Source: Patescibacteria group bacterium
GTDB taxonomy: Bacteria > Patescibacteriota > Dojkabacteria > GCA-002793355
Length of the DNA stretch: 64,000 nt
NCBI GenBank assembly: GCA_016860985.1
Contig: BOKM01000001.1
Span: forward strand, 463,462-527,461
Direction of reading: 5' to 3'
The position numbers and the translations under genes are program-made. Under the pieces are notes generated by a model. It worked only from the letters and a program-made list of their open reading frames with translations, searched no databases and had not been told where the DNA came from. The first letter of the stretch is position 1. The number at the start of each line of letters is the position of its first letter. This document shows positions 6,573 to 29,072 of this stretch, piece after piece.

Positions 6573-7517
6573 ATGACTCACCTTTCAGGAGAAACTGTCG
6601 CTACTCCACGAGCAACTTCTCAAGAAACAATCAGCAAACGACATGCACTTCCAGATGTTGCGGCACAATTTGCCGACCTAGAAGTTTCTTACGTGCACAC
6701 TCAAAACCGCAATACGTTTGTGCAGTATCGACTTGCCGAGAGTAACCCAGCAACAGCAGAAAACGTAGTACTCGCATTAAACGGAGGTGGAAATAATCCA
6801 TTGCACAACTTTGCACCTTTCGCAAAAAATATCTTGCAATCCGATGCGAACGTCACACGCTTTGTAGCGATGTATTATCCATTACACTACGAAGAACGTA
6901 ACGACGGTAGTGTTTTTGATATTCCAAAAACCATGGAGGATTTAGCTCAAGCGCGCGAACTACTCAATTTACCGCCAAAAGCGCGTATTCATCTTACTGG
7001 TTTAAGCCTGAGTGCCGATCAACTTATTGCCAGCATTGTCGGAGGACAATTACCACAAGAACAGTTTGCCTCCGTAACGCTACTCAGCCCTCTTGCAATC
7101 TTCCCAGAAGGAGAAAAGCATACAAAAGAACTACTCGCTCACTTTGTAGGTGAATCAATGGCGGCAAGAATGCGTGACCGAATAATTGCTACTATCGATG
7201 ATGTTACAAGAGCTTTTGAACTGCCACCGAACATGAAATATTTAGCAGAAACAATAGAACAATTTTTTGAGCAAATGCATCATTACCTAGCAAACCCTAT
7301 TGAACCTGTGAGTAAGATCCCACGTATTACCATGAAATGGGCGACCAAACGGGAGATACTCACCCAAGAAAGGAGAATGCAACTCGCTGCTTTATTAACC
7401 CCATTCACAGATCAACTACAACTCTCTCAGGAATTAATCCCAGGTCGTCACGGTGCGTCTATGCAACCGAAATACTGGAACGATTATTCGAGAGCAGTTA
7501 TCGAAGGTATTAGTTGA
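6573..7517 (+). CDS. hypothetical protein (possible alpha/beta-fold hydrolase, weak)
   Basis: Only a weak 'LALNGGGNN' and a 'HLTGLSLSAD' nucleophile-elbow-like segment. No confident family assignment. Confidence 0.4.
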   Translation: MTHLSGETVATPRATSQETISKRHALPDVAAQFADLEVSYVHTQNRNTFVQYRLAESNPATAENVVLALNGGGNNPLHNFAPFAKNILQSDANVTRFVAMYYPLHYEERNDGSVFDIPKTMEDLAQARELLNLPPKARIHLTGLSLSADQLIASIVGGQLPQEQFASVTLLSPLAIFPEGEKHTKELLAHFVGESMAARMRDRIIATIDDVTRAFELPPNMKYLAETIEQFFEQMHHYLANPIEPVSKIPRITMKWATKREILTQERRMQLAALLTPFTDQLQLSQELIPGRHGASMQPKYWNDYSRAVIEGIS

Positions 7518-8229
7518 TTTCGACTGGGTTTCCGGCGAAGTAGAGCTTCCCTTTTGTAATAACTAAAGCATCTTCGGGTCTAAGGGCAAAACCTTTTACC
7601 CCTTTTGGTAGAAGCTTTTCGACAGCCGGCAGCAGATTATCTTCAAAGTGAGGGTATACTTCAAAATTAACCAACCCTAATGGCTTAAAGTTCATTACCT
7701 GCGGATCACTCTCACCAATAAAGTTAGCTGCCCAATGCGTTGAAGTCGATACGCACATTGCGCCTGCGCTAAAGCCTACGAAGGGCTTACCTTTCTTAAC
7801 AATTTCTACTAAATTTTCCCGAATTCCTGCCTCATCAACTGCATGAAGTAACCTAGAAACAAGCCCTCCACTCATACATATCACATCGCACGTCTCCAAC
7901 GAGCGCAGCAGTATCTCTTTTGGCCACTTTTCTAAATCAAGTTGCTTGAGATACATGTTATTTATGGTCGTAAACTCTTGTAGGTACACATAACTCATGT
8001 CTGCACGTGCTTGATCCAGTCCACCATTCGGAATCAAGACGACTTTTTTATCATCAAGAGAACCACCAAGCATCTTCTCAAGCATTGGCTTCAAAGATTT
8101 AAATAGGTGTTCGGAAGGTAGAATCATATTGAGCGTTTCATCAGGATATGCTCCAATTTCCCTTACAGGCGAGTCTACCGAAAATACCTCTTTGAAGGCT
8201 GCTTTTCCTTTAAATTTGGAATACGACAT
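7510..8229 (-). CDS. peptidase S51 (dipeptidase E / cyanophycinase-like) family protein
   Basis: Class-I glutamine-amidotransferase-like fold with the S51 'ICMSGGLVSRLL' nucleophile region and 'KKVVLIPNGG'. Confidence 0.65.
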   Translation of the reverse strand: MSYSKFKGKAAFKEVFSVDSPVREIGAYPDETLNMILPSEHLFKSLKPMLEKMLGGSLDDKKVVLIPNGGLDQARADMSYVYLQEFTTINNMYLKQLDLEKWPKEILLRSLETCDVICMSGGLVSRLLHAVDEAGIRENLVEIVKKGKPFVGFSAGAMCVSTSTHWAANFIGESDPQVMNFKPLGLVNFEVYPHFEDNLLPAVEKLLPKGVKGFALRPEDALVITKGKLYFAGNPVEIN

Positions 8230-8250
8230 ACACGAAGTATAGCATCACAA

Positions 8251-8811
8251 TTACCTATTTTCCCCAAAGCTCAATCGTTCGCTCGCATTCATATCAATAC
8301 CTTTTGCAGCATATAATTTTGCAATATCGTAATCACCAACATCTTTTCCTTGCAAACCAAGTAACGCTAACCCTTCGTTTACTTTCTCTTTAGAGTTACT
8401 TTCTATCTCTAAGTACGTTTCAAGTTTTGGCCAGGTGCACAGACTAAACTCAATGTCGTTATAGTGAAAAATATGTATTTTCTTCTCTTGATACATAGAA
8501 CGATAAAAGAAGCCAAGTTTTTCGAGAATCTCGGTCGTTTTTTTGAAATCGGAGACTTCTACTTCGATTTCTGTTGTACTTCCAACGGATTCATCATCTG
8601 CCGGTTTATATTTGTAGGTCATTTTGGTAACACCGTTTTCTTGGCGAACTCGAACCCATTTCGTGCCTTCGGTTTTCATATCAAAAAGCATTCGGTATTC
8701 TAAATATTCTGGAGTCTCCTGTGCATTAAGCTCACGCAACTTTGCAATAATTTCGGAAGGATTGATATCGAGAACTTTTGTTTCATATTCGATGTGATTC
8801 ATAATTAGCAT
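8251..8811 (-). CDS. CYTH-domain protein (class IV adenylate cyclase / triphosphate tunnel metalloenzyme family)
   Basis: N-terminal 'IEYETKVLDINPSEIIAKL' (the CYTH ExExK-type opening strand) and size (~186 aa) fit CyaB/CYTH. Confidence 0.7.
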   Translation of the reverse strand: MLIMNHIEYETKVLDINPSEIIAKLRELNAQETPEYLEYRMLFDMKTEGTKWVRVRQENGVTKMTYKYKPADDESVGSTTEIEVEVSDFKKTTEILEKLGFFYRSMYQEKKIHIFHYNDIEFSLCTWPKLETYLEIESNSKEKVNEGLALLGLQGKDVGDYDIAKLYAAKGIDMNASERLSFGENR

Positions 8812-9164
8812 TATGATTTGTTCTTGATTTTCATCAGCGGGTGATTAGCCGCCTCTTTCATTGCCGAGAAATGTGACTCTTCGAGATCAATATCGTAATG
8901 TCGTGCAATTCGAACAAGCATTAGAAAAATATCGGAAAGTTCATCACCAATTTTACTTTTTGTTGCGTTAAACTCTTTGACTGTATCTCTTCCCGCCATA
9001 TAGTACCCTTCGGCAGCTAGGATCATTTTGCTTAATTCTCCAACCTGCTTCATAAGTTCGAGTGTCGCGCCCTCAGCTCCCCACGGTCGTTTTTCCACTT
9101 TTTCAAATGCATCTATCAACACATGTGATGCAGAAATAACCTCTTGAAATGTTTTTGATTGCAT
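8811..9164 (-). CDS. MazG-like nucleoside triphosphate pyrophosphohydrolase
   Basis: All-alpha NTP-PPase pattern 'ELMKQVGELSKMI...EFNATKSKIGDELSDIFLMLVRIARHYDIDLEE' with an EExxE/D-type metal site. Start moved to the internal Met (MQSKTF). Its stop overlaps the CYTH start. Confidence 0.65.
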   Translation of the reverse strand: MQSKTFQEVISASHVLIDAFEKVEKRPWGAEGATLELMKQVGELSKMILAAEGYYMAGRDTVKEFNATKSKIGDELSDIFLMLVRIARHYDIDLEESHFSAMKEAANHPLMKIKNKS

Positions 9165-9232
9165 AAAGGATTGTACTACAAACCATGAATGCAACACGAT
9201 ATTCCAACAATACCAAGTCACCGACATCAGCT

Positions 9233-10291
9233 TCAAGCCAAGCTTGGAAGTGGAATCAAATGTTTAAGTAATTTCCCTTTCTTAAATACCAATTTTCCGC
9301 TAGATGATACTACTCGATCAAAGAATGTGAATAACTCTTGAGGGAGTTTGACAGTACAGAATGGGTTTTCAATTAACACGTACTCCCTATTCCACGGTGA
9401 ATCAGGACCGATATCTTTGAAAAACAATACGGCACTAACTCGTGTTCCCTTTGACGCTGTAAAAATTGGGTCCAAACCAAAAGTCCTCTCACCAAACAGA
9501 GTTATCTTTGCTTCCATTGGCAATTCAACAGCCCAGTCCTCTAGATTAACTGCAATTATAAATGGAGCTTCGATGCTGTATGCGGAAGCTTTTGTCCGAA
9601 TGGTCTTCTGAAATCGAATAAACGGATCATTTCCTATCCAATTCGTTTCTACACCTGTCGAACAAACGAACCTTGTTCTTTTTGGTTCCGTCTTCTTTAG
9701 AAACTTGATTTCAATTTTCCAATCGTCTTGGGTGTACATTATCTGTTCGCTTCCGACATCCATAGCAGTAATACATTGTTTTCTCACTTCAGACACTTTA
9801 ATTGGTGTACTCCCTTTGTTTTGTGTTTCTAACCATCCAAAGAACAGAGTATCTTGCAATGTATTGTTGAGGTAATCAACAAGCTCGTTGAATAATTTAT
9901 CGGATAATTTTTCAGTAGAACTATCGACTGACGAGGTTGCGCACTCGATGTACACCTTTGATTTTCCTCTTGTTGCACAGAAATCAGGAGTTTGACCACT
10001 ACCGACAGAGGGTTCAACTTCAACTGCAAAACCTGTACTAATCAATAATTCTCGAACAAAGAGCTCGAAAAATGCTGGCTTCATATGAGTACGAAATTGA
10101 GAAATGAACCTCTTCTTCAAAGGTTCCGGGTATGTTGAAAACCATTTTTCGAATAGTAGTCTTCTTTGCTCAACCTCAACTCTCGATGATTGATTGTAAA
10201 ACGTGAAGAGATCTTCGGTATACTTCATTGGCCCAGTACGGATTCTAGGAATTTGATCAAAAAGGGTTGGCATATTGGACCAATTGTTCAA
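9233..10291 (-). CDS. hypothetical protein
   Basis: 352-aa ORF with no confident family. A short 'DDWKIEIK' segment is the only nuclease-like hint. The annotated start is 3 nt from the tmRNA 3' end, so the true start may be a downstream Met. Confidence 0.45.
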   Translation of the reverse strand: MNNWSNMPTLFDQIPRIRTGPMKYTEDLFTFYNQSSRVEVEQRRLLFEKWFSTYPEPLKKRFISQFRTHMKPAFFELFVRELLISTGFAVEVEPSVGSGQTPDFCATRGKSKVYIECATSSVDSSTEKLSDKLFNELVDYLNNTLQDTLFFGWLETQNKGSTPIKVSEVRKQCITAMDVGSEQIMYTQDDWKIEIKFLKKTEPKRTRFVCSTGVETNWIGNDPFIRFQKTIRTKASAYSIEAPFIIAVNLEDWAVELPMEAKITLFGERTFGLDPIFTASKGTRVSAVLFFKDIGPDSPWNREYVLIENPFCTVKLPQELFTFFDRVVSSSGKLVFKKGKLLKHLIPLPSLA

Positions 10292-10293
10292 AG

Positions 10294-10699
10294 TGGAGGT
10301 GAGGGGAATCGAACCCCTGTTCAGCTATTCTAAAAAAGAAGTTTCTCCCAAAACAGTCTGAGTTGTTTACGAGATTATGCCTAAAAATCAGACAAAAAAG
10401 CATAACCCGCCCACACAAATACGATTCTGGCAACTCAGCGGAACTAGCGGCCAGTCGGCATGAACTTTCTTACTCCTGGCTCTCCGCTTGTCATGCGAAG
10501 GAGGAAAAGCCAGTTACGTCGAAATTAGACGTATGAGAATTGCATTGCTGGAGAAACAGCTTTGAGGGCTGAGTTCACGAACGATGCGATTTTCTCAGAA
10601 AGGGTTTGTTTGGCACTTTATGTGCTTTGATAGTTTAACGGGATATCAGCCCGTTTGGCTACTTCTTTCAACGAACAACCGTCTAAACCGATCACCCCC
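10294..10699 (-). ncRNA. ssrA: transfer-messenger RNA (tmRNA, SsrA)
   Basis: Minus-strand RNA starts 5'-GGGGGUGAUCGGUUUAGACGG (cf. E. coli GGGGCUGAUUCUGGAUUCGACGG). It ends ...CAGGGGUUCGAUUCCCCUCACCUCCA, with a T-arm GGTTCGATTCCCC. The 7-bp acceptor stem GGGGGUG/CACCUCC carries the G3:U70 alanine identity pair. Length is ~406 nt. The 3' CCA is not encoded. The tag reading frame was not resolved. Confidence 0.8.
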
Positions 10700-20045: not shown

Positions 20046-20675
20046 TTATTGGACTCCGGCCTTCTTTAGCTTTGTAATCACAAAATATGTTAATGGTGTT
20101 GCCACTACTTCATATACTACTTTTACGACCCATTGAGTAAGAACCATCGTTACGATTTGTGCCGATGCTAATAGTCCTCCAAATGCGATCCCCAGAAATA
20201 AGATTGTATCTACACCTTCACCGAGCACCGTTGAGGAGATAGTTCTCAACCACAAAAACCTGCCCTTGGTCAATTCCTTGATTTTGTGCATGCTCCAAGC
20301 GTTTAAAAGAGAGCCTCCCAAATAGCCGGAAAATGAAGCAACGAGGATTCTCGGTGCTACACCTAAAATAGCATCAAAGCTGAGCTGTAAATCCCAAAAA
20401 GGAGCAGCAGGCAAGGCTTGGGCAGCAGCGATGGCAAGCACCACAATAAAGTTTGCAACAAAACCAAGTAGAATTGCGAATTTTGCTTTCTGAAATCCAA
20501 ATATCTCCGTCATTACATCTCCAATGATGTAACTTAATGGGAAAACTACTATACCAGCAGGAAGAAAAACGCCACCAAGTCCCACAATTTTTACAGCAAT
20601 TATATTGGCAGCAATCAGACAGGCAATAAATAAAGAGGTCAACCCAACAAAATAACCTGAATACATAATTTGCAA
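20046..20675 (-). CDS. yhhQ: queuosine-precursor (preQ0/preQ1) transporter, YhhQ/DUF165 (VUT) family
   Basis: ~209 aa with 6 TM helices and the YhhQ-like pattern 'IAANIIAVKIV...FPLSYIIGDVMTEIFG...FVANFIV'. TTG start. Divergent from the TGT-like operon. Confidence 0.75.
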   Translation of the reverse strand: MQIMYSGYFVGLTSLFIACLIAANIIAVKIVGLGGVFLPAGIVVFPLSYIIGDVMTEIFGFQKAKFAILLGFVANFIVVLAIAAAQALPAAPFWDLQLSFDAILGVAPRILVASFSGYLGGSLLNAWSMHKIKELTKGRFLWLRTISSTVLGEGVDTILFLGIAFGGLLASAQIVTMVLTQWVVKVVYEVVATPLTYFVITKLKKAGVQ

Positions 20676-20762: not shown

Positions 20763-21545
20763 ATGCGCCTTGCGATTATTGCACCAAATGCATATCTGCA
20801 GGATTTTTCAGCTTTTCATAACAACTCATACCATCTTGTTCTTGCACATCGATTCAACTCCGAGCCCGAATACCGTAGTTTTTACATTGAGCAAAGAAAG
20901 AAGACTCACAGTTTTATAATTCTTGATAACGGAGCTTGCGAACTCGGAGAGTCGATTAACAATGGCACACTACTAGAAACTGCCAGTGTCCTTCGTCCTG
21001 ACGTACTTGTTCTTCCCGACGTCTTGCATCAAAGTCAAGCAACAATTGCCAGAACAGAGAAATTCATTGAGTCCTATAAACACCAGAACAAAATAAAGTG
21101 CAAATTGATGGCAGTTGTACAGGGCAAAACAAGAAAGGAGTGGCTCTCAACATTATCTTCCTTTACCTCTAATCCATATATCGATATGATTGGGATTTCG
21201 AGTACAAACGCCGTATACCCGAAGACAAAAAACTACTATACCAGAATCAAAACACTTAGGTATTTGCATCAAAGACAACTTATAGGGAAGAAAAAAATTC
21301 ATATGCTCGGGTTAGATGACTCTGGACACTTCGAATTACGTCATTTCTCAAAATATTCCTTCATCGAAGGAGCAGATTCTAGCGCTCCAGTAGTTCATGG
21401 AGCAAAAGGGATAAAAATTTACAAGAACAAGCGTTACGAAAAGATTCGAACGTATCTACCAAGCGATGCAATCCTCACGAAGGAGCAGGTATTAGCAGTA
21501 AAAGCTAATCTGCAAGTATTTTTTGACATGGCTTCACATGAATAG
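20763..21545 (+). CDS. TGT-like (tRNA/DNA-guanine transglycosylase-like, DpdA-like) minimal TIM-barrel protein, putative
   Basis: Four collinear matches to TGT motifs with TGT-like spacing: 'FIILDNGACE' (cf. ILTDSGGFQ, catalytic Asp), 'LMAVVQGK' (cf. FGIIQGS), 'IHMLGLDD' (cf. LMGVGKPDD) and 'GADSSAPV' (cf. FDCVMPTR). 260 aa, with no CxCxxC...H zinc subdomain. Confidence 0.45.
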   Translation: MRLAIIAPNAYLQDFSAFHNNSYHLVLAHRFNSEPEYRSFYIEQRKKTHSFIILDNGACELGESINNGTLLETASVLRPDVLVLPDVLHQSQATIARTEKFIESYKHQNKIKCKLMAVVQGKTRKEWLSTLSSFTSNPYIDMIGISSTNAVYPKTKNYYTRIKTLRYLHQRQLIGKKKIHMLGLDDSGHFELRHFSKYSFIEGADSSAPVVHGAKGIKIYKNKRYEKIRTYLPSDAILTKEQVLAVKANLQVFFDMASHE

Positions 21546-23292
21546 AAAAATATTTGTATCGGGCGAAGGTGCTCGAGGAGCAGGAAAAACCTCTACGTTA
21601 AATGTTCTACTGCAAGAATCTACGACTCCCACTGCTGTTAACAGGGTAGCCCCAAACATACCTACAGAGCACCTTCTTCTGATTGACACTCATAAAGCGA
21701 CAAGCCCGTTTCACAAGAGAGCGCTCGAAATACATAAACAGTGGGAAGAAGCCGTCAAAACCCCAGGTGAAGGTGCAGAGCGATTATCATGGAAAAAGTT
21801 TGAGCTCGGAATACTACAGCTACGGTATGAATCCGACAGCTATCACGACGCAACTAGCAAAGCGGAGCAAATTTTTCTCGATAGAGATATTGATACAGCT
21901 GTCGTATACTCTGCAGCAGAGATTATTTTATCCAATCCTCACAAATACGATTCGGTACGTTCGCATATTGCGCTACTACACAATCTATGGCAGAAAGTAT
22001 ATTCAGTATGCCAGACAAACGACTGGGACGTGAGCACTTTTCCACACCTTGATACCGAAGATGATGTCTTATCATTAGTTGATTTTTTAAAACAACAACC
22101 CTTAAGGGATATACCCACTAATACCTTTTACTTCTTTACAAAAGATAAGACTGAATCACTAAAAAGGAGCCACACTTTACGTATAGACACTGCACTCGAA
22201 TACAATCTCACCGTAGTACAGCAAGCAACACAAGATATTATCCAACCATTGTACCTCTATTCCTTTCTCATCCGAAAACAATTATTCCCTGAGGCGCAAG
22301 TTCATTATCTCTCTTCAGATGCGCACAACATCAAAGAGCTCGCGAATTTGGTAAAACTACATGTTAATACGACGACGCTTGAGGTTCCAGGCGCAGACCA
22401 TATCCCCGTTAAGCTACGAATACCTTTTAACAAAGACCACTCCCTACCCTCATCCATTGAGACGCTTAGCCAAGTAATATTCGAAAGCACTGTTGGATCA
22501 ACCTTCCCAAGCAAACGAGAAGTACACATTAATGGAGAATCAAATTGTGTTTACAACAATAAGGCACTGTACGAATACGCATCATTACTAGGACTTGGCC
22601 ACATTGAATTCGTCCAAATTCAACGAGAGACATTCTCTGAAACTTGTCCTGTCCACTGGGCGTGTATTGAGTGGCTTACTCCCCAAAGAGATACTGCACG
22701 AATAATTGATCTGACACCTTTTAGAATTAAGCCCTACATTTCCCAACCTTGTAAAGTTACACACAATGGGGATACATACCAACTGACCTCGCTCACACAA
22801 CAGCCTATTGAATTTACTCAAGTAAAGAAAGAAACGTCATTAATTCCAGAAAGAGCCATGGAATTCGCCTATAACGTTGAATATACTTTCCAGGAAGAAT
22901 CGTTACAAGCATTAACACGTGAGGGATATGAATTGTTAGGCCAATCAAACAACGAATCGCAGAATATATTTTTAACTATTAGGTTAGGAAGATTGTTGCA
23001 GAAACAGGAACGCATCCAAGAGGCAGTCGAATTGCTTGAGCGAGCAGTGACCACTTTCCCGCAAAATCTTATACTTGCCAGGGAAGTTGCAAAGTATGTC
23101 ATTGATGGGTACATTAAATTCGTACCACCGTATTTTTATACTTACCTCAGTAACGCAAACCAGATTCTTGAACGAACTACCCAAACAATGCGAGAACATG
23201 ATATTGATGAAACTGAAATCAATGCGTATTATGAGTATAGGAAATTTATTCCACATGCACTTAAGTTAATCACCGAAGAACATGAAAGTTGA
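21538..23292 (+). CDS. P-loop nucleoside/nucleotide-kinase-like domain fused to a ~400-aa uncharacterised Cys-containing, partly TPR-like C-terminal domain
   Basis: N-terminus 'KIFVSGEGARGAGKTST' is a dNK/thymidylate-kinase-type Walker A, followed by 'LDRDIDTAVVY'. The C-terminal region contains 'CVYNN', 'CPVHWACIEW', 'PCKVTHNGDTYQ' and a helical repeat (LERAVTTFPQNLILAREVAKYV). The ATG at 21538 overlaps the upstream stop by 8 nt; the track start is a TTG at 21523. Confidence 0.5.
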   Translation: MNRKIFVSGEGARGAGKTSTLNVLLQESTTPTAVNRVAPNIPTEHLLLIDTHKATSPFHKRALEIHKQWEEAVKTPGEGAERLSWKKFELGILQLRYESDSYHDATSKAEQIFLDRDIDTAVVYSAAEIILSNPHKYDSVRSHIALLHNLWQKVYSVCQTNDWDVSTFPHLDTEDDVLSLVDFLKQQPLRDIPTNTFYFFTKDKTESLKRSHTLRIDTALEYNLTVVQQATQDIIQPLYLYSFLIRKQLFPEAQVHYLSSDAHNIKELANLVKLHVNTTTLEVPGADHIPVKLRIPFNKDHSLPSSIETLSQVIFESTVGSTFPSKREVHINGESNCVYNNKALYEYASLLGLGHIEFVQIQRETFSETCPVHWACIEWLTPQRDTARIIDLTPFRIKPYISQPCKVTHNGDTYQLTSLTQQPIEFTQVKKETSLIPERAMEFAYNVEYTFQEESLQALTREGYELLGQSNNESQNIFLTIRLGRLLQKQERIQEAVELLERAVTTFPQNLILAREVAKYVIDGYIKFVPPYFYTYLSNANQILERTTQTMREHDIDETEINAYYEYRKFIPHALKLITEEHES

Positions 23293-23794
23293 TCAAGCAA
23301 AACTTGGAGTAGGTACAATCTGTTACCTACACTCAAACGACTCTTACTTACTAGGCGAAAAAAAGTACGGTGGCGCACAAGGTAAAGTTAATGGGTTTGG
23401 TGGCAAGATCGAAACGACAGACCAATCAATCTATGATGCAGTTAAGAGGGAATTTCGTGAAGAAACATCAATCCAACTCAACGCACCCAAGTATTGTGGC
23501 ATTATCGAAATTTTTAAGAACGAGACGAGAAAAGCAATTTTTTATCTGTTTAAAGCAGATGACTTTATCGGCCAACCTCAAGAATCTGAGGAGATGAAAG
23601 TGTACTGGGTGAAAAATACTGAGGTCCCTTTCGAAAAAATGTGGGCATCAGATGCATTATGGCTTCCACTCTTTCTTAAAAATGACAATATACGTGTAAA
23701 ACTTTATTTTCAGGAAGGCAATGACAAAGCAGATCGAATGGAAGTAACCTTTAATGCGACTCTAGATGAAACATATCACGAAAACTTTATCTAA
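23282..23794 (+). CDS. Nudix hydrolase
   Basis: Nudix box 'GGKIETTDQSIYDAVKREFREETSI' (GX5EX7REUXEEXGU-like). 170 aa. The start overlaps the upstream stop (ATGAAAGTTGA). Confidence 0.75.
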   Translation: MKVDQAKLGVGTICYLHSNDSYLLGEKKYGGAQGKVNGFGGKIETTDQSIYDAVKREFREETSIQLNAPKYCGIIEIFKNETRKAIFYLFKADDFIGQPQESEEMKVYWVKNTEVPFEKMWASDALWLPLFLKNDNIRVKLYFQEGNDKADRMEVTFNATLDETYHENFI

Positions 23795-24668
23795 GGTTCC
23801 ATCCTATTTGATAGAAACTATTGAGAAGGAATCTATTCCCTACCTCGAGCAAGTTCGTGTAAAGGAATATTCTAAACGTCTTCCACCACTTGAAGGGCAA
23901 AGAGTTGCAGTAATCCCTTGGAGTGGTGGGTTAGACTCAACAACCAGTCTTATCATGGCGATAGAAGCAGGCATCTCAATCAGGACCATATTTCTGAATT
24001 ACGGACAACCTTACATAAAGAAAGAATTGCTCGCAACCAATAAGTTAGAAAAACTGATACGCGCAAAATATCCGGAAGCAGATTGGACCGAGCATTACAT
24101 AGTCGATGTGAGCTTCATAGACCAGCTTGTGAAATCGAAATTCAACGGAGAATGGGGACATATTTTCCCAATGCGTAACTTTCTCATCCTTGAAGAATCA
24201 GCCGCGATAGCACAACCAAATAGATACACAGAAGTTTGGTTTAGCAGTGTGCAAGGAGAAATGCCTTATTCAGGAGGAGACAAGAGTGTGGTATTTCTCA
24301 CCTATATGAAAGAAATTTTTGGAAAACGGAATATTAATTTAACCACGCCGCTCGTCGGCCTCACAAAGGCAGATATGGTTCAATGGGCTATTGCCCAACT
24401 AGATAGGTTCCGTATTATTCGACATACGATATCCTGCTTCAACGGAGAAGGAGATTCCCACTGTGGTGAATGTCAAGCTTGTTTCAATCGTGCAGTAGCA
24501 TTTTTCGCTGCAAATCAACTCCCACTTAGCGGAGTCCCTTACCACAAAAACGCATTGCAAAATTTTGGAGAAAATTATATTCGTAAACTTGCTAAAGAAA
24601 GTTATTACTCCCCAACAAGAAGAAGCCAGTTACAGCAGTTCATAAACTTTATAAGCCAACAAACATGA
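23766..24668 (+). CDS. QueC-family PP-loop ATPase (7-cyano-7-deazaguanine synthase homologue) with a ~50-aa N-terminal extension
   Basis: Collinear with B. subtilis QueC: PP-loop 'VAVIPWSGGLDSTT' (SGGxDS), 'NYGQ' (cf. DYGQRH), 'PMRNFLIL' (cf. PGRNLLFL) and a C-terminal zinc site 'SCFNGEGDSHCGECQAC' (cf. CYNG...GCGECPAC). Confidence 0.8.
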   Translation: MKHITKTLSKVPSYLIETIEKESIPYLEQVRVKEYSKRLPPLEGQRVAVIPWSGGLDSTTSLIMAIEAGISIRTIFLNYGQPYIKKELLATNKLEKLIRAKYPEADWTEHYIVDVSFIDQLVKSKFNGEWGHIFPMRNFLILEESAAIAQPNRYTEVWFSSVQGEMPYSGGDKSVVFLTYMKEIFGKRNINLTTPLVGLTKADMVQWAIAQLDRFRIIRHTISCFNGEGDSHCGECQACFNRAVAFFAANQLPLSGVPYHKNALQNFGENYIRKLAKESYYSPTRRSQLQQFINFISQQT

Positions 24669-25534
24669 TTAGCTTTGTTATACCCTCTTATCAGCGAGCA
24701 GACGGTGCAATCTTTATGATACTTAATTTGTTGCACCAAACAGTTTTCACAAAATATCCAACAGAACTAATACTGTCTATTGATGAAACTGATACCCAAA
24801 AAGAATTGTATGCAAACTACATCATTCAAGCAAAAAAAATTGCGCAAGAAATCGTACCTGCATGTAACATATCACTCCTGGTTAATCAGACAAAAGGCTT
24901 AGTCGCAGCAAAGAATAACGCTGTGCGAGCTTCTAAATACGAGTTCATCATGATGCTCGATGATGATCTTGCTGCAGTAGATAATTACGTTGAAGCCTTG
25001 TTAGCCGACATGAAGGCTGCCCCTTCAGTAGGTGCTATTTCAGGATTTATAGTTTCATACCTTTCTGCTATATCTCACACTCAACCCTCCGATTTCATTG
25101 AAGAGGTACCTAAGGAATCGCATCTACAGACACTAAAACTGGACTCCAACAATGGTGCTTGGAGAACATTTTTCGGCAAGAAAGAGCAGGTCATGGATTG
25201 GAGTAGAATCAATAAGAATATTCCTTCTACGGTTCGCTATACCATGGACTATTTTGTCAATTCGTATCTCTTTAGAAGAAGCGCATACAACAAAATAGGT
25301 GGATACTCAAATGATTTAAATTCTAAGACATCTGCCCACGAGGAGGTCGATTTCACTTATAGAATGAGAAAAGCTGGCTACCAACTTCTTTTTAATCCAT
25401 TTGTCCAGATGTGGCATATTACCGTCGGCCACGGAGGTATCTACAAAGGAGCAGATTACAATGAGAGTAAAGAAATCTTAGAAAAAGAGTATAAAGAAAG
25501 TATACCTCTATTTGTTCAGTCGATTTCCAGGTAG
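24665..25534 (+). CDS. family 2 glycosyltransferase
   Basis: 'ISFVIPSYQRADG' N-terminal GT-A start and the 'FIMMLDDDL' DxD motif. ATGA overlap with the QueC-like stop. Confidence 0.7.
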   Translation: MISFVIPSYQRADGAIFMILNLLHQTVFTKYPTELILSIDETDTQKELYANYIIQAKKIAQEIVPACNISLLVNQTKGLVAAKNNAVRASKYEFIMMLDDDLAAVDNYVEALLADMKAAPSVGAISGFIVSYLSAISHTQPSDFIEEVPKESHLQTLKLDSNNGAWRTFFGKKEQVMDWSRINKNIPSTVRYTMDYFVNSYLFRRSAYNKIGGYSNDLNSKTSAHEEVDFTYRMRKAGYQLLFNPFVQMWHITVGHGGIYKGADYNESKEILEKEYKESIPLFVQSISR

Positions 25535-25577: not shown

Positions 25578-26372
25578 ATGAAATCCCCGTATGTTCAGGG
25601 TTTGAAACAGGGGTTCGCCGAACTTTCAGTCTACTCTCTCGATTTCCTGTTTGGGTTATTCCAAGCAGTTGCGCTTGTCGGCTTTGAAATACTCCTGTGG
25701 ACTTTTGTCCTCCCTGCTGATAACCAAACTGCCCTATTTGAACGCACCTCTTATTTTTTGCTAGCCAATGGCATTGCCTTGGTAATCGGAGGTGCCCGAT
25801 ATCGCTTTGCCAGAGATTTATCACTCGTCATCAAAGAGGGAACGTTGTCGCACTACCTTCTTAAACCGATTAATCCTGTACTTTACATCTATTCAGAACA
25901 TGTTGGAGGAAAAGGACCAGATTTTATGATCGGATTAATTTTTATAATCATGGGAACTTTGTGGATACCGACCTTTACGCTCGTTAAGCTACCATTGTTG
26001 TTGATAACGCTGGCTGCAGCTCTCATAAATACAATCTCACTAAACGTTATCGCAGGGGCTGTAGCCTTTTGGACAACCGAGGCAAACGGTATTAAGAATG
26101 CCTTTGCGCAAACAACGCGATTATTTAACGGACAGCAAGTTCCCATCAATCTTTTCATGGAAATGATCAGTCCTTTTTGGGCGCAATTCTTGTATATTCT
26201 CCCCTTCGCAAGTGTTGCATATACGCCAACGCACATAGTTATTGCCAAAACATTCGACGCAATAGATTTTAGATTTATCATCGCTTCGATTATCTGGGCG
26301 TTCATTCTCCCGTTACTCGCAACACTAATTTGGAATAGAGGACTCAAACGATATGAGGGGACTGGTCTCTAA
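25578..26372 (+). CDS. ABC-2-type transporter permease (6 TM)
   Basis: 264-aa polytopic membrane protein. First of two permeases preceding an ABC ATPase in the same operon. Confidence 0.55.
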   Translation: MKSPYVQGLKQGFAELSVYSLDFLFGLFQAVALVGFEILLWTFVLPADNQTALFERTSYFLLANGIALVIGGARYRFARDLSLVIKEGTLSHYLLKPINPVLYIYSEHVGGKGPDFMIGLIFIIMGTLWIPTFTLVKLPLLLITLAAALINTISLNVIAGAVAFWTTEANGIKNAFAQTTRLFNGQQVPINLFMEMISPFWAQFLYILPFASVAYTPTHIVIAKTFDAIDFRFIIASIIWAFILPLLATLIWNRGLKRYEGTGL

Positions 26373-27171
26373 CCTACGATTCTACTTTCGAGTACTTGCA
26401 AAAAAGATTTTGTTTGCCTGGCAGATAGAAACGGCTTACGCAGGGAACACGATAGGTGAGCTTTTTTCAACCATTTTTTACAACATTACCTTTATTATTT
26501 TTATCGATATTGTACTGCGAAAATATAAGCTGCTCGCTGGCTACTCTTTCAACGATATGCTGGTACTTGTTTTTGTGACACAGATTGTATTCTATACAGG
26601 ACTAACTATTACTTACGATAGCATGTCAAAATTCGTACAATCTGTAAGAGATGGTATTTTTGATACGTACCTTCTCAAACCGATGTCTGTTTTCTTTCAA
26701 GTGATGACCTTAAGCATCAGGCCGTTTTCTGGGCTGTTCTTTTCTGTTCCACCATTGCTAATTTATGTAGTGCTCATCATTAAAAATCAAGCATTTCATC
26801 CCGAACCTTTTGGGCTAACGGTTGGCTTACTTGGAATGTTGGTTGGGATTCTCTACCTTCATTTTTATCGATTTACGTTTGCGATGTTCGTGTTTAAAAC
26901 AAAACAGGTAAAAAACCTACTCAAAACACTTGACCTACTTGGGGATGCTGGATCTTTTCCCTACGAGGCTTATGTTGAACCGTTTAGAACAATTGTCTTT
27001 TTTATTGCGCCATTTCTTGCTGCGGCTGCCATTCCTGCAACCTACTTCTTAAACAAAACGACTTCTCTTTGGCCATTTGTTATTCAGATTGGACTCATGC
27101 TATTTTTTATGACTACTGCACTACTTTTATGGAGAAAAGGATTAAAAGAATATGAATCAATTTCATCTTAA
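26353..27171 (+). CDS. ABC-2-type transporter permease (6 TM)
   Basis: 272-aa polytopic membrane protein. The start overlaps the previous permease stop. Confidence 0.55.
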   Translation: MRGLVSNLRFYFRVLAKKILFAWQIETAYAGNTIGELFSTIFYNITFIIFIDIVLRKYKLLAGYSFNDMLVLVFVTQIVFYTGLTITYDSMSKFVQSVRDGIFDTYLLKPMSVFFQVMTLSIRPFSGLFFSVPPLLIYVVLIIKNQAFHPEPFGLTVGLLGMLVGILYLHFYRFTFAMFVFKTKQVKNLLKTLDLLGDAGSFPYEAYVEPFRTIVFFIAPFLAAAAIPATYFLNKTTSLWPFVIQIGLMLFFMTTALLLWRKGLKEYESISS

Positions 27172-27186
27172 TTATTCACCCCTATT

Positions 27187-28170
27187 ATGAAACCAGTTAT
27201 CACTACACAAAACCTCAAAAAGGATTTTCTTGTTCCTGCACGACAGTCATTTTGGCAAAGACTGTTTACTCCAAAATACGAAGAAGTCACGGCTGTCGAC
27301 AACATTTCTTTTCACATTATGGAAGGCGAATCTGTTGCACTTCTTGGACCGAATGGCGCGGGCAAAACAACAACCATGAAAATGATGACCGGCATACTTT
27401 ATCCAACAGCCGGAAGTTGCAATGTGCTTGGATACAACCCTAATAAACGCAACCCTGCGATGCTTAAAAACATTGGCTTTGTAATGGGCAATAAAAGCAC
27501 GCTTTCTATGGACCTTTCCCCTATGCAAAACTACGAGCTTAACAGAGTTATTTACGATATTGATGCCACAAGATTTTATAACACGATAGACGAACTTGGG
27601 GAACTTCTTGAGGTAAAAGATCATTTATATAAACAAACACGAAAACTCTCGCTTGGACAAAGAATGAAAGCGGAAATGATAAACTCGATACTACACAGAC
27701 CGAAGATTCTCTTTCTAGACGAACCGACCATTGGACTAGACATCTCCTCTCAGAACAATATTCGCACATTTCTTAAAAAAGTTAACAAAGAGCTAGGAAC
27801 GACGATTATCCTTACGAGCCACAATATGGAAGATATTTCACAAGTTTCTGAAAGAGTACTTATAATCAATCAAGGCAAACTCGTTTACGACAACTCTCTC
27901 GAAATGCTGAAGCGGACTTTTTCAACAAAAAAATACATCAAGGTTATTGTTACAACAAAAGGAAACTCCCGCTCCTTTGAGAAAAAGTTTAAGCCATTTG
28001 GTGACATTGTCAGCTCTGGTAAAGATTTCGTGACGCTCGAAATTGATAAAAACAGACAGGCACCCATTATTGCAGCAATACTCAACATGGAGCACGTTCA
28101 TGATATCGATATTGAGGGGGTACCACTCACAAAAATCATAGAATCGATTTTCAAGAAAAAACTTGATTAG
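27187..28170 (+). CDS. ABC transporter ATP-binding protein with a C-terminal accessory (DUF4162-like) domain
   Basis: Walker A 'GPNGAGKTTTMKMM', signature 'LSLGQRMK', Walker B 'ILFLDEPTIGLD' and H-loop 'TSHNMED'. The C-terminal ~100-aa extension is typical of ABC-2 exporter ATPases. Confidence 0.9.
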   Translation: MKPVITTQNLKKDFLVPARQSFWQRLFTPKYEEVTAVDNISFHIMEGESVALLGPNGAGKTTTMKMMTGILYPTAGSCNVLGYNPNKRNPAMLKNIGFVMGNKSTLSMDLSPMQNYELNRVIYDIDATRFYNTIDELGELLEVKDHLYKQTRKLSLGQRMKAEMINSILHRPKILFLDEPTIGLDISSQNNIRTFLKKVNKELGTTIILTSHNMEDISQVSERVLIINQGKLVYDNSLEMLKRTFSTKKYIKVIVTTKGNSRSFEKKFKPFGDIVSSGKDFVTLEIDKNRQAPIIAAILNMEHVHDIDIEGVPLTKIIESIFKKKLD

Positions 28171-28178
28171 GTTACGTA

Positions 28179-28991
28179 TTACTTTGTTACTTGCAGTGTT
28201 TTCATAACCGAATCACAAATGGCGATGTACGACGCATCGATTGAACAATACGCACTAAACCAAATGTCCTTATTGTAGGTTAAGGCGGGTGAAGCACAAG
28301 GCGATGTAGTCGCATCAGAAATAACAGGTTCTGTGCACTCTTTCCCACTCGAGAGAGAAGAAGGCGTCACATACGCAACAGCAAAGCTGTAGCTACCCGA
28401 ATTACCAAATACCTTTTTAGAACGAACTCTTTTTAAATCCTTAATTGATGAACTCACATTGGTTAGTGATGAGTAACCCTGAATTTCATACAACTCATAA
28501 GGGAGGTTAAACGCCATAAAGGCCTTCGTTCCCTTTCGTAAGAGAATGCCATTCCAGGTCCCAATTTTTGTTTCTGATACCGTCACATCTGCCGGCAATT
28601 TCATAGTAAAAGTGAGTGTAAAACTACCCTCCCACTCTTTAATTTTGGCCGTCTTTGTTACTGTAGATGCGGTGGCAGTCGGGGTTGGCGTTGAGGTTGC
28701 AGAAGGTGTTGGAGATTCTGTTGGTGTATCAGAAACCGAAGGAGTCACACTCTCGGTTGGGGTAGGTGTGACGGTCACAGTAGGAGTTGGAGTCAATGGT
28801 GTTGGTGTTTTTTGTTTGCCGGCATAAAAGCCCAAAGCGGAGGCGAGTGCAATAAGCGCGACTACTAGGCCAATTATCAATCCTTTTGATAATGACTGCG
28901 ATTGCACTTGAGGCTCAATCTGCGGCTGGCTATCTAACTGAACGCCTTCTGCATTTGCTTCAGGCATATTTGTTGGCTGTGAAATTTCCAT
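28179..28991 (-). CDS. membrane-anchored surface protein with a Pro/Thr-rich linker
   Basis: TM anchor (LIIGLVVALIALASALGFYAG), then 'TPTPLTPTPTVTVTPTPTESVTPSVSDTPTESPTPSATSTPTPTATAS', then a globular C-terminal domain. Start moved to the internal Met (MEISQ); the track ORF extends to 29060. Confidence 0.5.
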   Translation of the reverse strand: MEISQPTNMPEANAEGVQLDSQPQIEPQVQSQSLSKGLIIGLVVALIALASALGFYAGKQKTPTPLTPTPTVTVTPTPTESVTPSVSDTPTESPTPSATSTPTPTATASTVTKTAKIKEWEGSFTLTFTMKLPADVTVSETKIGTWNGILLRKGTKAFMAFNLPYELYEIQGYSSLTNVSSSIKDLKRVRSKKVFGNSGSYSFAVAYVTPSSLSSGKECTEPVISDATTSPCASPALTYNKDIWFSAYCSIDASYIAICDSVMKTLQVTK

Positions 28992-29003
28992 AATGAAGAG
29001 TAG

Positions 29004-29053
29004 CGCGAATTTTCGAATCTGTAAAATGAAATGCCTCTGGCGAAAATTCGCGC
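29004..29053. promoter_or_regulatory. perfect 13-bp inverted repeat GCGCGAATTTTCG-(24 nt)-CGAAAATTCGCGC immediately upstream of the tyrS -10 element
   Basis: Arms at 29004-29016 and 29041-29053. An extended -10 TGTATAAT follows at 29060-29067, with the tyrS ATG at 29073. Confidence 0.35.
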
Positions 29054-29072
29054 AAAACATGTATAATCTACC

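What the first reader, a model, noticed from the sequence alone, without database searches (positions are those of the whole stretch)
21538..23292. Fusion of a dNMP/dNK-like P-loop kinase domain to a ~400-aa uncharacterised domain
The N-terminus (KIFVSGEGARGAGKTST ... LDRDIDTAV) looks like a thymidylate/deoxynucleoside-kinase-type P-loop. The remaining ~400 residues have scattered Cys/His (CVYNN, CPVHWACIEW, PCKVTHNG) and a C-terminal helical repeat. They have no family I can recognise. Co-operonic kinase plus Nudix pairs are characteristic of pathways that process a modified nucleotide. Known hypermodified-base pathways use kinases and NTP pyrophosphatases in this way.
Basis: partly seen in the sequence, partly recalled or inferred. 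Interest (0 to 1): 0.5.

Follow-up and report, generated by a model that had tools for sequence, protein, structure and literature searches.

The report
Kinase–thiol-enzyme fusion in deazaguanine operon
This gene from an uncultured ultra-small (Patescibacteria) bacterium encodes a rare three-part enzyme: a thymidylate-kinase-like nucleotide kinase, a previously unrecognised Cys-His-Asp domain and a helical repeat. It always sits in an operon with a phage-type DNA guanine transglycosylase, a Nudix hydrolase, a QueC-like enzyme and a glycosyltransferase, so it probably helps make an undescribed 7-deazaguanine modification of nucleic acid.

Summary

The family is tiny: 16 hits among 1.84 billion representative proteins, none with a functional name; the two named copies are Patescibacteria/Daviesbacteria MAG hypothetical proteins. 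In every full-length member whose context was read, the gene order is DpdA3-like transglycosylase, this protein, Nudix, QueC-like, GT2. QueD-QueE or a divergent YhhQ transporter is often attached.

My best reading, which is inferred, is a bifunctional enzyme acting on a 7-deazaguanine (deoxy)nucleotide. The kinase domain would phosphorylate the modified NMP, and the thiol domain would remodel the 7-substituent.

No Pfam, PDB, PHROG or PADLOC family covers the fusion, and the papers I could search do not describe this cassette. Novelty: new variant of a known kind. Interest: 0.65.

The parts
21538..23292 (+). Whole gene: 584-aa three-domain protein (ATG start; stop TGA 23290-23292).
   Evidence: ORF. 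The 584-aa database twin is P0001. Coordinates were checked. The AF2 model has pLDDT 91.6 and pTM 0.88.
21538..22377 (+). Domain 1 (aa 1-280): thymidylate-kinase / deoxynucleoside-kinase-fold phosphotransferase domain. It carries a clade-specific insertion at about aa 160-190 and a flexible lid at about aa 200-230.
21565..21597 (+). Walker A / P-loop EGARGAGKTST (aa 10-20). R13 is invariant at the position where the aligned TMPKs have Asp or Glu.
   Evidence: Invariant columns. Alignments to 3hjn (FEGIDGSGKS) and 4mqb (FEGPEGSGKT).
21640..21645 (+). Invariant N35-R36, aligned with the Arg of the TMPK 'REP' motif that follows strand 2.
21880..21909 (+). DRDIDTAVVY (aa 115-124), the counterpart of the TMPK DR(Y/H)xxS motif. 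D115, R116 and D119 are invariant.
   Evidence: aligned to 'LLDRYTDSSVAYQ' of 3hjn.
22438..22833 (+). Domain 2 (aa ~301-432): sequence-orphan α+β domain. It has an invariant Cys337 (22546-22548) at the N-terminus of helix 337-351, His373 (22654-22656) at the start of strand 374-379, and Asp391 (22708-22710) at the end of strand 386-391. This is a papain/transglutaminase-like arrangement.
22840..23289 (+). Domain 3 (aa 435-584): all-helical TPR-like repeat domain.
20763..21545 (+). Upstream gene (260 aa): DpdA3-family (TGT-like) guanine transglycosylase. Its stop overlaps the ATG of the fusion gene by 8 nt.
   Evidence: tblastn hits to CP220 gp056 (2e-10) and to the Flavobacterium phage immuto_2-6A 'DNA guanine transglycosylase' (6e-9). 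hhalign to the latter gives 99.6 % probability, E 2.8e-24, over the full length. phrog_19058 is hit at 1.5e-16. The family is defined in PMC10516641.
23282..23794 (+). Downstream gene (170 aa): MutT-like Nudix hydrolase. It overlaps the fusion gene by 11 nt.
   Evidence: PF00293 at 2e-9. The best NCBIfam hits are MutT and NudG type (d)NTP diphosphatases.
23766..24668 (+). QueC-like ATP-dependent enzyme (300 aa).
   Evidence: PF06508 at 6.8e-24, TIGR00364 at 3.6e-19 (below its cut-off), phrog_1550 at 1.5e-30.
24665..25534 (+). GT2-family glycosyltransferase (289 aa), the last gene of the conserved five-gene cassette.
   Evidence: PF00535 at 1.5e-10. It also scores 29.8 bits on PF20691 TAGT, above that model's cut-off of 27.5. 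The gene is conserved in L001, L003, L004, L007, L009 and L011.
20046..20675 (-). Divergently transcribed YhhQ/Vut_1 queuosine-precursor transporter.
   Evidence: PF02592 at 1.9e-49 and TIGR00697 at 2.5e-34. It has the same position in L001 and L004.

Best explanation
The gene encodes a three-domain enzyme of a dedicated 7-deazaguanine nucleic-acid modification operon in a Patescibacteria (CPR) bacterium.

**What is shown**
- Domain 1 has the thymidylate-kinase fold. It keeps the catalytic equipment of an NMP kinase: the Walker A Lys, the Arg that follows strand 2, the DRx motif and a lid Arg.
- Domain 2 is an orphan α+β domain with an invariant Cys-His-Asp set placed as in papain/transglutaminase-like thiol enzymes.
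- Domain 3 is TPR-like.
- The gene is translationally coupled to a DpdA3-type transglycosylase upstream and a MutT-like Nudix downstream.
- The order DpdA3-like, fusion, Nudix, QueC-like, GT2 is conserved down to about 27-30 % identity. The 7-deazaguanine supply is either QueD-QueE (de novo 7-carboxy-7-deazaguanine, CDG) or a YhhQ importer.

**What is inferred**
- The cassette works at least partly at the nucleotide level, following the logic of T4 hydroxymethyl-C synthesis:
  1. The Nudix converts (d)GTP to (d)GMP.
  2. The DpdA3-like enzyme exchanges guanine for a 7-deazaguanine base.
  3. The kinase domain of this protein phosphorylates the resulting modified (d)NMP to the diphosphate so it can re-enter the polymerisable pool.
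  4. The fused thiol domain attacks the 7-substituent (the nitrile of preQ0 or the carboxamide of ADG) through a covalent thioimidate or thioester, hydrolysing it or transferring it to an amine.
  5. The QueC-like enzyme handles the ATP-dependent carboxylate chemistry.
  6. The GT2 finally adds a sugar.
- The TPR-like domain probably docks a partner protein.
- The invariant Arg13, at a position where TMPKs carry an acidic residue, suggests an acceptor that differs from dTMP.

For: **Pathway context.**
- The upstream protein belongs to DpdA3.
- The five-gene order is conserved in the window, L001, L003, L004, L007, L009/L010 and L011.
- QueD and QueE sit in the operon in L007 and L011.
- YhhQ is adjacent in the window, L001 and L004.
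- A second cassette type keeps a stand-alone copy of the kinase domain next to DpdA3-like, QueC-like and Nudix genes, and adds an RNase_T exonuclease.

**Nucleotide-level logic.**
- Phages with DpdA3 carry small P-loop kinases next to or within three genes of DpdA3: CP220 gp057 and immuto gp203 (AAA_28, about 1e-12) and MA9V-3 (AAA_18).
- They also carry NTP phosphohydrolases nearby: CP220 gp055 (HD) and immuto gp208 (MazG-like PRA-PH), and the phiST dUTPase_2-type gene.
- Nudix, MazG and HD would then be non-orthologous fillers of one role.
- Gene overlaps of 8, 11, 29 and 4 nt indicate co-translation.
Against: - No biochemical data exist for any member.
- TGT-family enzymes, including DpdA, are known only to act on polynucleotides. 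The paper that defined DpdA3 argues that insertion is post-replicative.
- The phage kinases next to DpdA3 align to this family only at the P-loop. They are analogues, not orthologues.
- Several DpdA3 phage contexts have no nearby kinase: MaInes, and the phage-like contigs carrying P0017 and P0019.
- The window protein itself does not reach any Pfam kinase threshold.
- Heavy replacement of G in a cellular chromosome would be unprecedented.
Confidence: 0.42

Rival explanations
1. DNA-level helper, a functional analogue of DpdB plus DpdC. The DpdA3-like enzyme would insert preQ0 or CDG directly into chromosomal DNA. The P-loop domain would act as the NTPase that drives or licenses this exchange, as the DpdB ATPase does for bacterial DpdA. 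The Cys-His-Asp domain would convert the inserted base on DNA (for example preQ0 to ADG, as DpdC does), and the TPR domain would bind the transglycosylase.
For: DpdA-family enzymes are described as DNA transglycosylases, and insertion as post-replicative (PMC10516641). The fusion gene is translationally coupled to the DpdA3-like gene by an 8-nt overlap. pTM 0.88 suggests one compact multi-domain machine. A TPR-like domain fits protein docking. The GT2 resembles DNA-base glycosyltransferases (TAGT 29.8 bits, phrog_842).
Against: The fold is that of small-molecule NMP/nucleoside kinases, with the acceptor-site Arg36 and the DRx motif conserved. It is not a ParB-like or motor ATPase. The PADLOC scan (whether that library holds Dpd models was not checked) gave no hit for this protein or its upstream neighbour. 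This reading leaves the universally co-conserved MutT-like Nudix without a role.
Confidence: 0.22
2. Small-molecule pathway. The cassette would make a glycosylated 7-deazapurine nucleoside or nucleotide (an antibiotic-like or signalling or cell-surface compound) rather than modifying nucleic acid. The kinase and the Nudix would set the phosphorylation state of the nucleotide intermediate, and the thiol domain and the QueC-like enzyme would tailor the 7-carboxyl or amide group.
For: Known deazapurine natural-product clusters use a Nudix (tubercidin TubG, listed), QueC homologues that act as amide synthetases (RoyL) and glycosyltransferases (huimycin HuiG). In the window the cassette is followed by an ABC-2 exporter. 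The type-B cassette in L008 sits beside DegT, ADH and GT1 sugar-tailoring genes.
Against: A DpdA3-family transglycosylase is the invariant first gene, and the genome-mining work treats DpdA as the marker of nucleic-acid rather than secondary-metabolite pathways. The ABC transporter is missing in the syntenic relative L001 and in the other loci. An RNase_T exonuclease in the type-B cassettes points to nucleic acid.
Confidence: 0.15
3. Salvage or tRNA role. The operon would recycle queuosine-family bases or nucleotides scavenged from a host cell for tRNA modification. The kinase and the Nudix would be general nucleotide-salvage enzymes.
For: CPR bacteria are known episymbionts (abstract listed); from my own knowledge they have minimal biosynthesis. 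A YhhQ precursor importer is adjacent in three loci.
Against: The transglycosylase is of the short phage DpdA3 type (about 260 aa), not a bacterial tRNA TGT, and its profile gives no hit to any PDB chain, TGT structures included. Two loci carry de novo QueD-QueE instead of an importer. Salvage does not explain a glycosyltransferase and a thiol enzyme.
Confidence: 0.08
4. Housekeeping thymidylate kinase (Tmk) that happens to be fused to unrelated domains, or a catalytically dead scaffold.
For: The best structural and profile matches are bona fide TMPKs.
Against: The family has only 16 hits in 1.84e9 representative proteins, far too rare for a housekeeping enzyme. The P-loop acidic residue of TMPKs is replaced by an invariant Arg. 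Identity to TMPKs is 13-16 %. The gene always sits in the deazaguanine cassette. Invariance of the kinase motifs and of the Cys-His-Asp set argues against a dead scaffold.
Confidence: 0.03

Closest known systems
Thymidylate kinase (Tmk, PF02223) and the wider dNMP/deoxynucleoside-kinase fold (dCK, dGK, herpes TK)
   Different: Only 13-16 % identity. The window protein is below every Pfam threshold. It has an invariant Arg where TMPKs carry Asp or Glu in the P-loop. It carries extra helical insertions, so the domain is about 280 aa against about 200. It is fused to two further domains and is locked into a deazaguanine operon.
Papain-like / transglutaminase-like thiol enzymes (cluster with PNGase, arylamine N-acetyltransferases, NTAQ1 deamidase, menin; PMC10318531)
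   Different: There is no detectable sequence relationship to any Pfam or PDB papain-like family. The predicted substrate is a nucleobase substituent rather than a protein. Activity is untested.
Phage DpdA3 7-deazaguanine systems (Campylobacter phage CP220, Cellulophaga phiST, Flavobacterium phage immuto_2-6A; PMC10516641)
   Same: Same transglycosylase subfamily (hhalign 99.6 %). A QueC-type enzyme and CDG-pathway genes are nearby. A small P-loop kinase and an NTP phosphohydrolase lie close to DpdA3.
   Different: Here the system is chromosomal in a cellular organism. The kinase is TMPK-like and fused to a thiol domain plus TPR. The NTPase is a Nudix. A GT2 is part of the cassette. The phage kinases share only the P-loop with this family.
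Bacterial Dpd modification module (DpdA-DpdB-DpdC; PMC10164549)
   Same: A TGT-like transglycosylase is combined with an NTP-using partner and an enzyme that could convert the nitrile or amide at C7.
   Different: No sequence similarity to any PADLOC model. No restriction genes (dpdD-K-type helicases or nucleases) were seen in the window cassette or in related loci. Nudix and GT2 genes are added.
T4-type pre-replicative hypermodification (dCTPase gp56, dCMP hydroxymethylase gp42, dNMP kinase gp1, then DNA glucosyltransferases). This comparison rests on my own knowledge.
   Same: The same enzyme roles appear in one operon: an NTP pyrophosphatase, a base-modifying or base-exchanging enzyme, an NMP kinase and a glycosyltransferase.
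   Different: The base is different (G rather than C). The protein families are unrelated. The host is cellular. The analogy is an inference only.

Membership tests
Thymidylate kinase / dNMP-kinase fold (PF02223 and relatives) | P-loop GxxGxGK[ST] at the N-terminus, after strand 1 | tested here: met
   EGARGAGKTST at aa 10-20. G11, G14, G16 and K17 are invariant in 15 members. The motif aligns to the TMPK P-loops.
Thymidylate kinase / dNMP-kinase fold (PF02223 and relatives) | DR(Y/H) motif whose Arg binds the acceptor phosphate | tested here: met
   D115-R116-D117 has D115 and R116 invariant. It aligns to 'LLDRYTDS' and 'LCDRYIDS' of the PDB TMPKs.
Thymidylate kinase / dNMP-kinase fold (PF02223 and relatives) | Overall three-dimensional fold | tested here: met
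Thymidylate kinase / dNMP-kinase fold (PF02223 and relatives) | Acidic P-loop residue (Asp/Glu four residues before the Lys) that contacts the deoxyribose 3'-OH in TMPKs (the role is from my own knowledge) | tested here: not met
   The position holds an invariant Arg13. The aligned TMPKs have D (3hjn) or E (4mqb).
Thymidylate kinase / dNMP-kinase fold (PF02223 and relatives) | Score above the Pfam gathering threshold | tested here: not met
   The window protein has no PF02223 hit at E <= 1. Nine of 15 relatives hit it weakly, with a best E of 6.4e-6.
Thymidylate kinase / dNMP-kinase fold (PF02223 and relatives) | Phosphorylates dTMP or another dNMP | not testable with these tools
   Needs an enzyme assay.
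Papain-like / transglutaminase-like thiol enzymes | [quoted passage not shown] | tested here: met
   The invariant C337 is the first residue of helix 337-351 in the model, where local pLDDT is about 95. The definition is from PMC10318531.
Papain-like / transglutaminase-like thiol enzymes | The helix is followed by an antiparallel sheet, with His on strand 2 and a polar residue on strand 3 | tested here: met
   The strands are 355-364, 374-379, 386-391, 405-410, 413-418 and 426-431. The invariant H373 precedes strand 2 and the invariant D391 ends strand 3. The 43215 sheet order and the side-chain geometry could not be checked because I had no coordinates.
Papain-like / transglutaminase-like thiol enzymes | Detectable homology to a known papain-like family (sequence or structure) | tested here: inconclusive
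TPR repeat proteins | Tandem helix-turn-helix repeats that match TPR profiles | tested here: inconclusive
Bacterial Dpd system proteins (DpdB ATPase, DpdC) | Match to the defence-system models | tested here: not met
   The PADLOC scan gave 0 families for this protein. I did not check which Dpd models that library holds.
DpdA3 transglycosylase (the upstream neighbour, not this protein) | Full-length homology to the phage DpdA3 proteins named in PMC10516641 | tested here: met
   hhalign against Flavobacterium phage immuto_2-6A DpdA gives 99.6 % probability, E 2.8e-24 and 247 aligned columns. tblastn against CP220 gives 2e-10.

The most novel reading that the evidence does not exclude
Some Patescibacteria would run a T4-like, pre-replicative pathway for guanine. 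A Nudix would drain dGTP to dGMP, and a DpdA3-type enzyme would swap the base on the mononucleotide. This fused kinase/thiol enzyme would re-phosphorylate and tailor the product, and a GT2 would glycosylate it. The result would be a cellular chromosome that carries a heavily substituted, glycosylated 7-deazaguanine. A corollary is that DpdA3 enzymes in phages with 100 % G replacement (CP220, phiST, immuto) would also act on nucleotides rather than on DNA, contrary to the current post-replicative model.
Probability: 0.15. Interest if true: 0.9.

Novelty: new variant of a known kind. Interest (0 to 1): 0.65.

Why it matters
- 7-Deazaguanine DNA modification is known from phages and from bacterial Dpd defence islands. 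The DpdA3 subfamily, the one linked to complete guanine replacement, has so far been described only in viruses.
- Here a DpdA3-type enzyme sits in the chromosome of CPR bacteria. It lies in a fixed five-gene cassette whose second gene is an undescribed fusion of a nucleotide kinase with a putative thiol enzyme.
- If the cassette works as proposed, it would reveal a new glycosylated deazaguanine modification in cellular life.
- It would also supply a new enzyme family for tailoring the C7 substituent.
- It would give a concrete, testable argument (the recurring kinase plus NTP-pyrophosphatase pairing) for reopening the question of whether DpdA3-type replacement is pre-replicative or post-replicative.
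- The five genes are small and could be expressed together in E. coli with preQ0 or CDG feeding.

Tried and rejected
- **Direct family scans.** Pfam, NCBIfam, PHROGs, PADLOC and PDB sequence searches of the whole protein gave only sub-threshold TPR and AAA_28 hits and chance matches such as XendoU and Ig lambda.
- **First AF2 run.** With 4 sequences the model was unusable (pLDDT 60). It became reliable only after the exhaustive HMMER search supplied 11 more members.
- **Metal-binding reading of the Cys/His residues.** Rejected, because only one Cys and one His are invariant.
- **Sequence identification of the middle domain.** All attempts failed: profile against PDB, Pfam on all members at E <= 10, hhalign against E. 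coli YchA, a transglutaminase-like/TPR protein, and a last large-database search with the mid-plus-C-terminal profile, which returned only family members.
- **Orthology with the phage kinases next to DpdA3.** Not supported, because only the P-loop aligns.
- **Search for the family in other collections.** Nothing was found in IMG/VR viral contigs or JGI metagenome contigs. The alignment-based genome scan first failed for lack of a conserved stretch. A second attempt found two loci.
- **Fold searches.** The afdb50 library was unavailable. The BFVD viral search returned only kinases.
- **Other checks.** No preQ1 riboswitch or other Rfam family lies near the operon. The profile of the DpdA3-like protein found no PDB TGT by sequence.
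Full report
**1. The observation**

The + strand carries an open frame 21523-23292. The ATG at 21538 gives a 584-aa product that is identical in sequence and length to database protein P0001, and a cluster member of P0001 is annotated 'MAG: hypothetical protein [Patescibacteria group bacterium]'. The ATG overlaps the stop of the upstream gene by 8 nt (ATGAATAG). The stop of the gene is overlapped by 11 nt by the next gene. The following two junctions overlap by 29 and 4 nt. The five genes from 20763 to 25534 are therefore one tightly coupled operon.

**2. How rare the protein is**

A word-indexed search of 5.8 billion proteins found 4 relatives. An exhaustive HMMER scan of 1.84 billion cluster representatives found 16:
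- 13 are full-length proteins of 520-580 aa.
- 1 is a 403-aa protein (P0004) that lacks the helical tail.
- 2 are stand-alone N-terminal domains of 247-267 aa.
- 1 is a stand-alone C-terminal helical domain of 126 aa.

A later search with a profile of the C-terminal 285 aa returned only family members. Pattern scans of viral and JGI metagenome contigs returned none. No member carries a functional name. Two loci come from named MAGs, Candidatus Daviesbacteria and a bin labelled Gammaproteobacteria.

**3. Domain 1 is a thymidylate-kinase-fold kinase**

With 15 sequences AlphaFold2 gave a confident model (pLDDT 91.6, pTM 0.88). With 4 sequences it had failed.
- Foldseek against the PDB and against BFVD agrees.
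- A family profile hits PDB thymidylate kinases by sequence (3hjn, E 4.3e-6). The P-loop aligns (fEGeRGtGK to FEGIDGSGK), as do the Arg after strand 2 (NRe to KRE) and the DRY-type motif (llDRdlDtvVvY to LLDRYTDSSVAY).
- Pfam Thymidylate_kin is hit by 9 of 15 members and AAA_28 by 8.
- All these motif residues are invariant in the family, and a lid Arg (R210) is nearly so.

One defining TMPK feature is not met. The P-loop residue four positions before the Lys is Asp or Glu in the aligned TMPKs but is an invariant Arg here. This is a TMPK-fold kinase, but not a Tmk orthologue.

**4. The 'unknown 400 aa' is two domains**

The kinase domain extends to about aa 280. It includes a clade-specific insertion at about aa 160-190 that is absent from more distant members.

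*Residues ~300-432.* This region contains the family's other block of invariant residues: L310, G320, P324, N336-C337, L344, P371, H373-W374, R388, D391 and P394-F395.
- In the model C337 is the first residue of helix 337-351. H373 sits at the start of the second following strand (374-379). D391 sits at the end of the third strand (386-391), and three more strands follow.
- This is the published definition of the papain-like core: Cys at the N-terminus of the core helix, with strands 2 and 3 delivering His and a polar residue (PMC10318531).
- Sequence methods found nothing, so domain 2 is a sequence orphan. I call it papain/transglutaminase-like by inference, not as a demonstrated member.

**5. 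Context**

*The window operon*
- The upstream 260-aa protein has no Pfam hit. It matches phrog_19058 at 1.5e-16.
- By tblastn it matches a Campylobacter phage CP220 protein and the 'DNA guanine transglycosylase DpdA' of Flavobacterium phage immuto_2-6A. Profile comparison with the latter gives 99.6 % probability and E 2.8e-24 over the full length.
- These phages define the DpdA3 subfamily, which is associated with complete guanine replacement (PMC10516641).
- Downstream lie a MutT-like Nudix, a QueC-like enzyme and a GT2 glycosyltransferase. The GT2 also exceeds the threshold of the TET-associated DNA glycosyltransferase model.
- A YhhQ/Vut_1 queuosine-precursor transporter is transcribed divergently.

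*Related loci*
- The order DpdA3-like, fusion, Nudix, QueC-like, GT2 is identical in L001 (54 % identity), L003, L004, L007, L009/L010 and L011 (about 27-32 % identity).
- In L007 and L011 the cassette is preceded by QueD and QueE, which make 7-carboxy-7-deazaguanine.
- In the window, L001 and L004 YhhQ is adjacent.
- The flanking genes are housekeeping (uvrA, uvrC, tyrS, dnaK/dnaJ), so the cassette is chromosomal.
- A second cassette type keeps the stand-alone kinase domain with DpdA3-like, QueC-like and Nudix genes, and adds an APH-like kinase and an RNase_T exonuclease.
- The invariant core is therefore transglycosylase + TMPK-like kinase + QueC-like + Nudix. The thiol domain, the TPR domain and the GT2 travel together as an add-on.

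**6. Mechanism**

*What is shown*
- The fold of domain 1, its conserved catalytic motifs and the conserved triad of domain 2.
- The translational coupling and the fixed gene neighbourhood tied to 7-deazaguanine supply.

*What is inferred*
- I think the kinase domain phosphorylates a 7-deazaguanine (deoxy)nucleoside monophosphate.
- A MutT-type Nudix and an NMP kinase only make sense if free nucleotides are intermediates.
- The combination of NTP pyrophosphatase, base-changing enzyme, NMP kinase and glycosyltransferase is, from my own knowledge, the logic of T4 glucosyl-hydroxymethyl-C synthesis.

*Independent hints from DpdA3 phages*
- In CP220 the DpdA3 gene is flanked by an HD-phosphohydrolase/AAA_33 protein and an AAA_28 kinase, inside a block of structural genes.
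- In immuto_2-6A an AAA_28 kinase and a MazG-like pyrophosphohydrolase lie within the deazaguanine cluster.
- In Chryseobacterium phage MA9V-3 an AAA_18 kinase immediately precedes DpdA3.
- In phiST a dUTPase_2-type gene lies in the five-gene block that contains DpdA3.

*The thiol domain and its partners*
- For the thiol domain, the chemically natural substrates are the nitrile of preQ0 or the carboxamide of ADG.
- Cys would add to give a thioimidate or thioester. This would then be hydrolysed or passed to an amine.
- From my own knowledge, QueF-type enzymes use the same chemistry on nitriles and transglutaminases use it on Gln amides.
- QueC homologues that act as amide synthetases on CDG are documented, so the QueC-like enzyme and the thiol domain may build a substituted amide that the GT2 then glycosylates.

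*Caveats*
- The phage kinases are analogues only.
- Some DpdA3 contexts lack any kinase.
- No TGT-family enzyme is known to act on mononucleotides.
- The authors who defined DpdA3 favour post-replicative insertion.

**7. Rivals**

| Reading | Main support | Main problem | Weight |
|---|---|---|---|
| DNA-level DpdB/DpdC analogue | Explains the fusion and the TPR domain | Does not explain the kinase-type acceptor site or the universal Nudix | 0.22 |
| Glycosylated deazapurine small molecule | Fits the Nudix, QueC-like and GT genes | Does not fit an invariant DpdA3 gene or the RNase_T of type-B cassettes | 0.15 |
| Salvage for tRNA | YhhQ importer and CPR lifestyle | Short phage-type transglycosylase; QueD-QueE in two loci | 0.08 |
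| Housekeeping Tmk | Best matches are true TMPKs | Rarity, the P-loop Arg and the fixed context | 0.03 |

**8. Novelty**

The N-terminal fold is familiar. The fusion, the orphan thiol domain and the five-gene cassette are not covered by any library searched, and the literature I could search does not describe them. In particular, the DpdA3 paper never mentions a kinase or a Nudix, and the 2026 deazapurine genome-mining preprint mentions neither a kinase, a Nudix nor Patescibacteria. I rate the finding a new variant of a known kind (7-deazaguanine nucleic-acid modification systems), with interest 0.65.

Noticed in passing
window 25578-28170 (+): Two ABC-2-type permease genes and an ABC ATPase gene follow the GT2 directly. 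They are absent at the same position in the syntenic 54 %-identity relative L001, where the GT2 is followed by a minus-strand gene and then tyrS. They look like a lineage-specific insertion, not part of the cassette.
   Followed up: partly
L008 7229-13075, and a JGI contig without DNA: A second ('type B') cassette has the order DpdA3-like, stand-alone TMPK-like kinase (247-267 aa), QueC-like, APH/fructosamine-kinase-like, Nudix, RNase_T exonuclease. Vut_1 follows in one locus. GT1, DegT aminotransferase and ADH genes are nearby in the other.
   Followed up: partly
L005 (CP220) 6814-9307; L006 (immuto_2-6A) 7222-9945; L015 (MA9V-3) 4465-5732: Phage DpdA3 genes are repeatedly next to small P-loop kinases (AAA_28, AAA_18/33) and NTP phosphohydrolases (HD, MazG-like PRA-PH). 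The records annotate the AAA_28 proteins as 'thymidylate kinase'. The DpdA3 paper does not discuss this pairing, and it bears on whether replacement is pre-replicative or post-replicative.
   Followed up: partly
window 24665-25534 (+): The GT2 glycosyltransferase scores 29.8 bits on PF20691 (TET-associated DNA glycosyltransferase, cut-off 27.5). It also hits phrog_842 (beta-glucosyl-HMC alpha-glucosyltransferase), which hints at a DNA-base acceptor. The Daviesbacteria orthologue scores below that cut-off (19.8 bits).
   Followed up: partly
L002 1071-2620: In this short contig the protein is split. A 403-aa kinase-plus-thiol-domain ORF is followed by a 126-aa ORF at the position of the C-terminal helical domain; a 126-aa helical-domain-only protein (P0036) is probably this ORF, but I did not check their identity. 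If so, the TPR-like part is a separable module.
   Followed up: partly
window 21565-21597 (aa 13): An invariant Arg occupies the P-loop position where the aligned thymidylate kinases have Asp or Glu. This charge reversal may mark a different acceptor substrate.
   Followed up: partly
window 10291-10699 (-): tmRNA gene (Rfam RF00023, 92 bits). It is the only Rfam family above threshold in the window. No preQ1 riboswitch lies near yhhQ or the operon.
   Followed up: no
L004 52-1647: A serine-recombinase-like gene (Recombinase and Zn_ribbon_recom domains) lies just beyond YhhQ next to the cassette, in a MAG labelled Gammaproteobacteria. This could indicate mobility of the cassette or mis-binning.
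   Followed up: no
window 28179-29060 (-): A 293-aa ORF has a long Pro/Thr/Ser-rich low-complexity stretch (TPTPTVTVTPTPTESVTPS...) after an N-terminal hydrophobic segment. It is probably a surface-anchored protein.
   Followed up: no
L016 2889-7762; L019 447-5617: More distant DpdA3-like genes (about 28 % identity) sit in phage-like contigs. They lie two to three genes downstream of a UDG-PolA fusion polymerase and a DUF3987 protein, with no kinase nearby.
   Followed up: no
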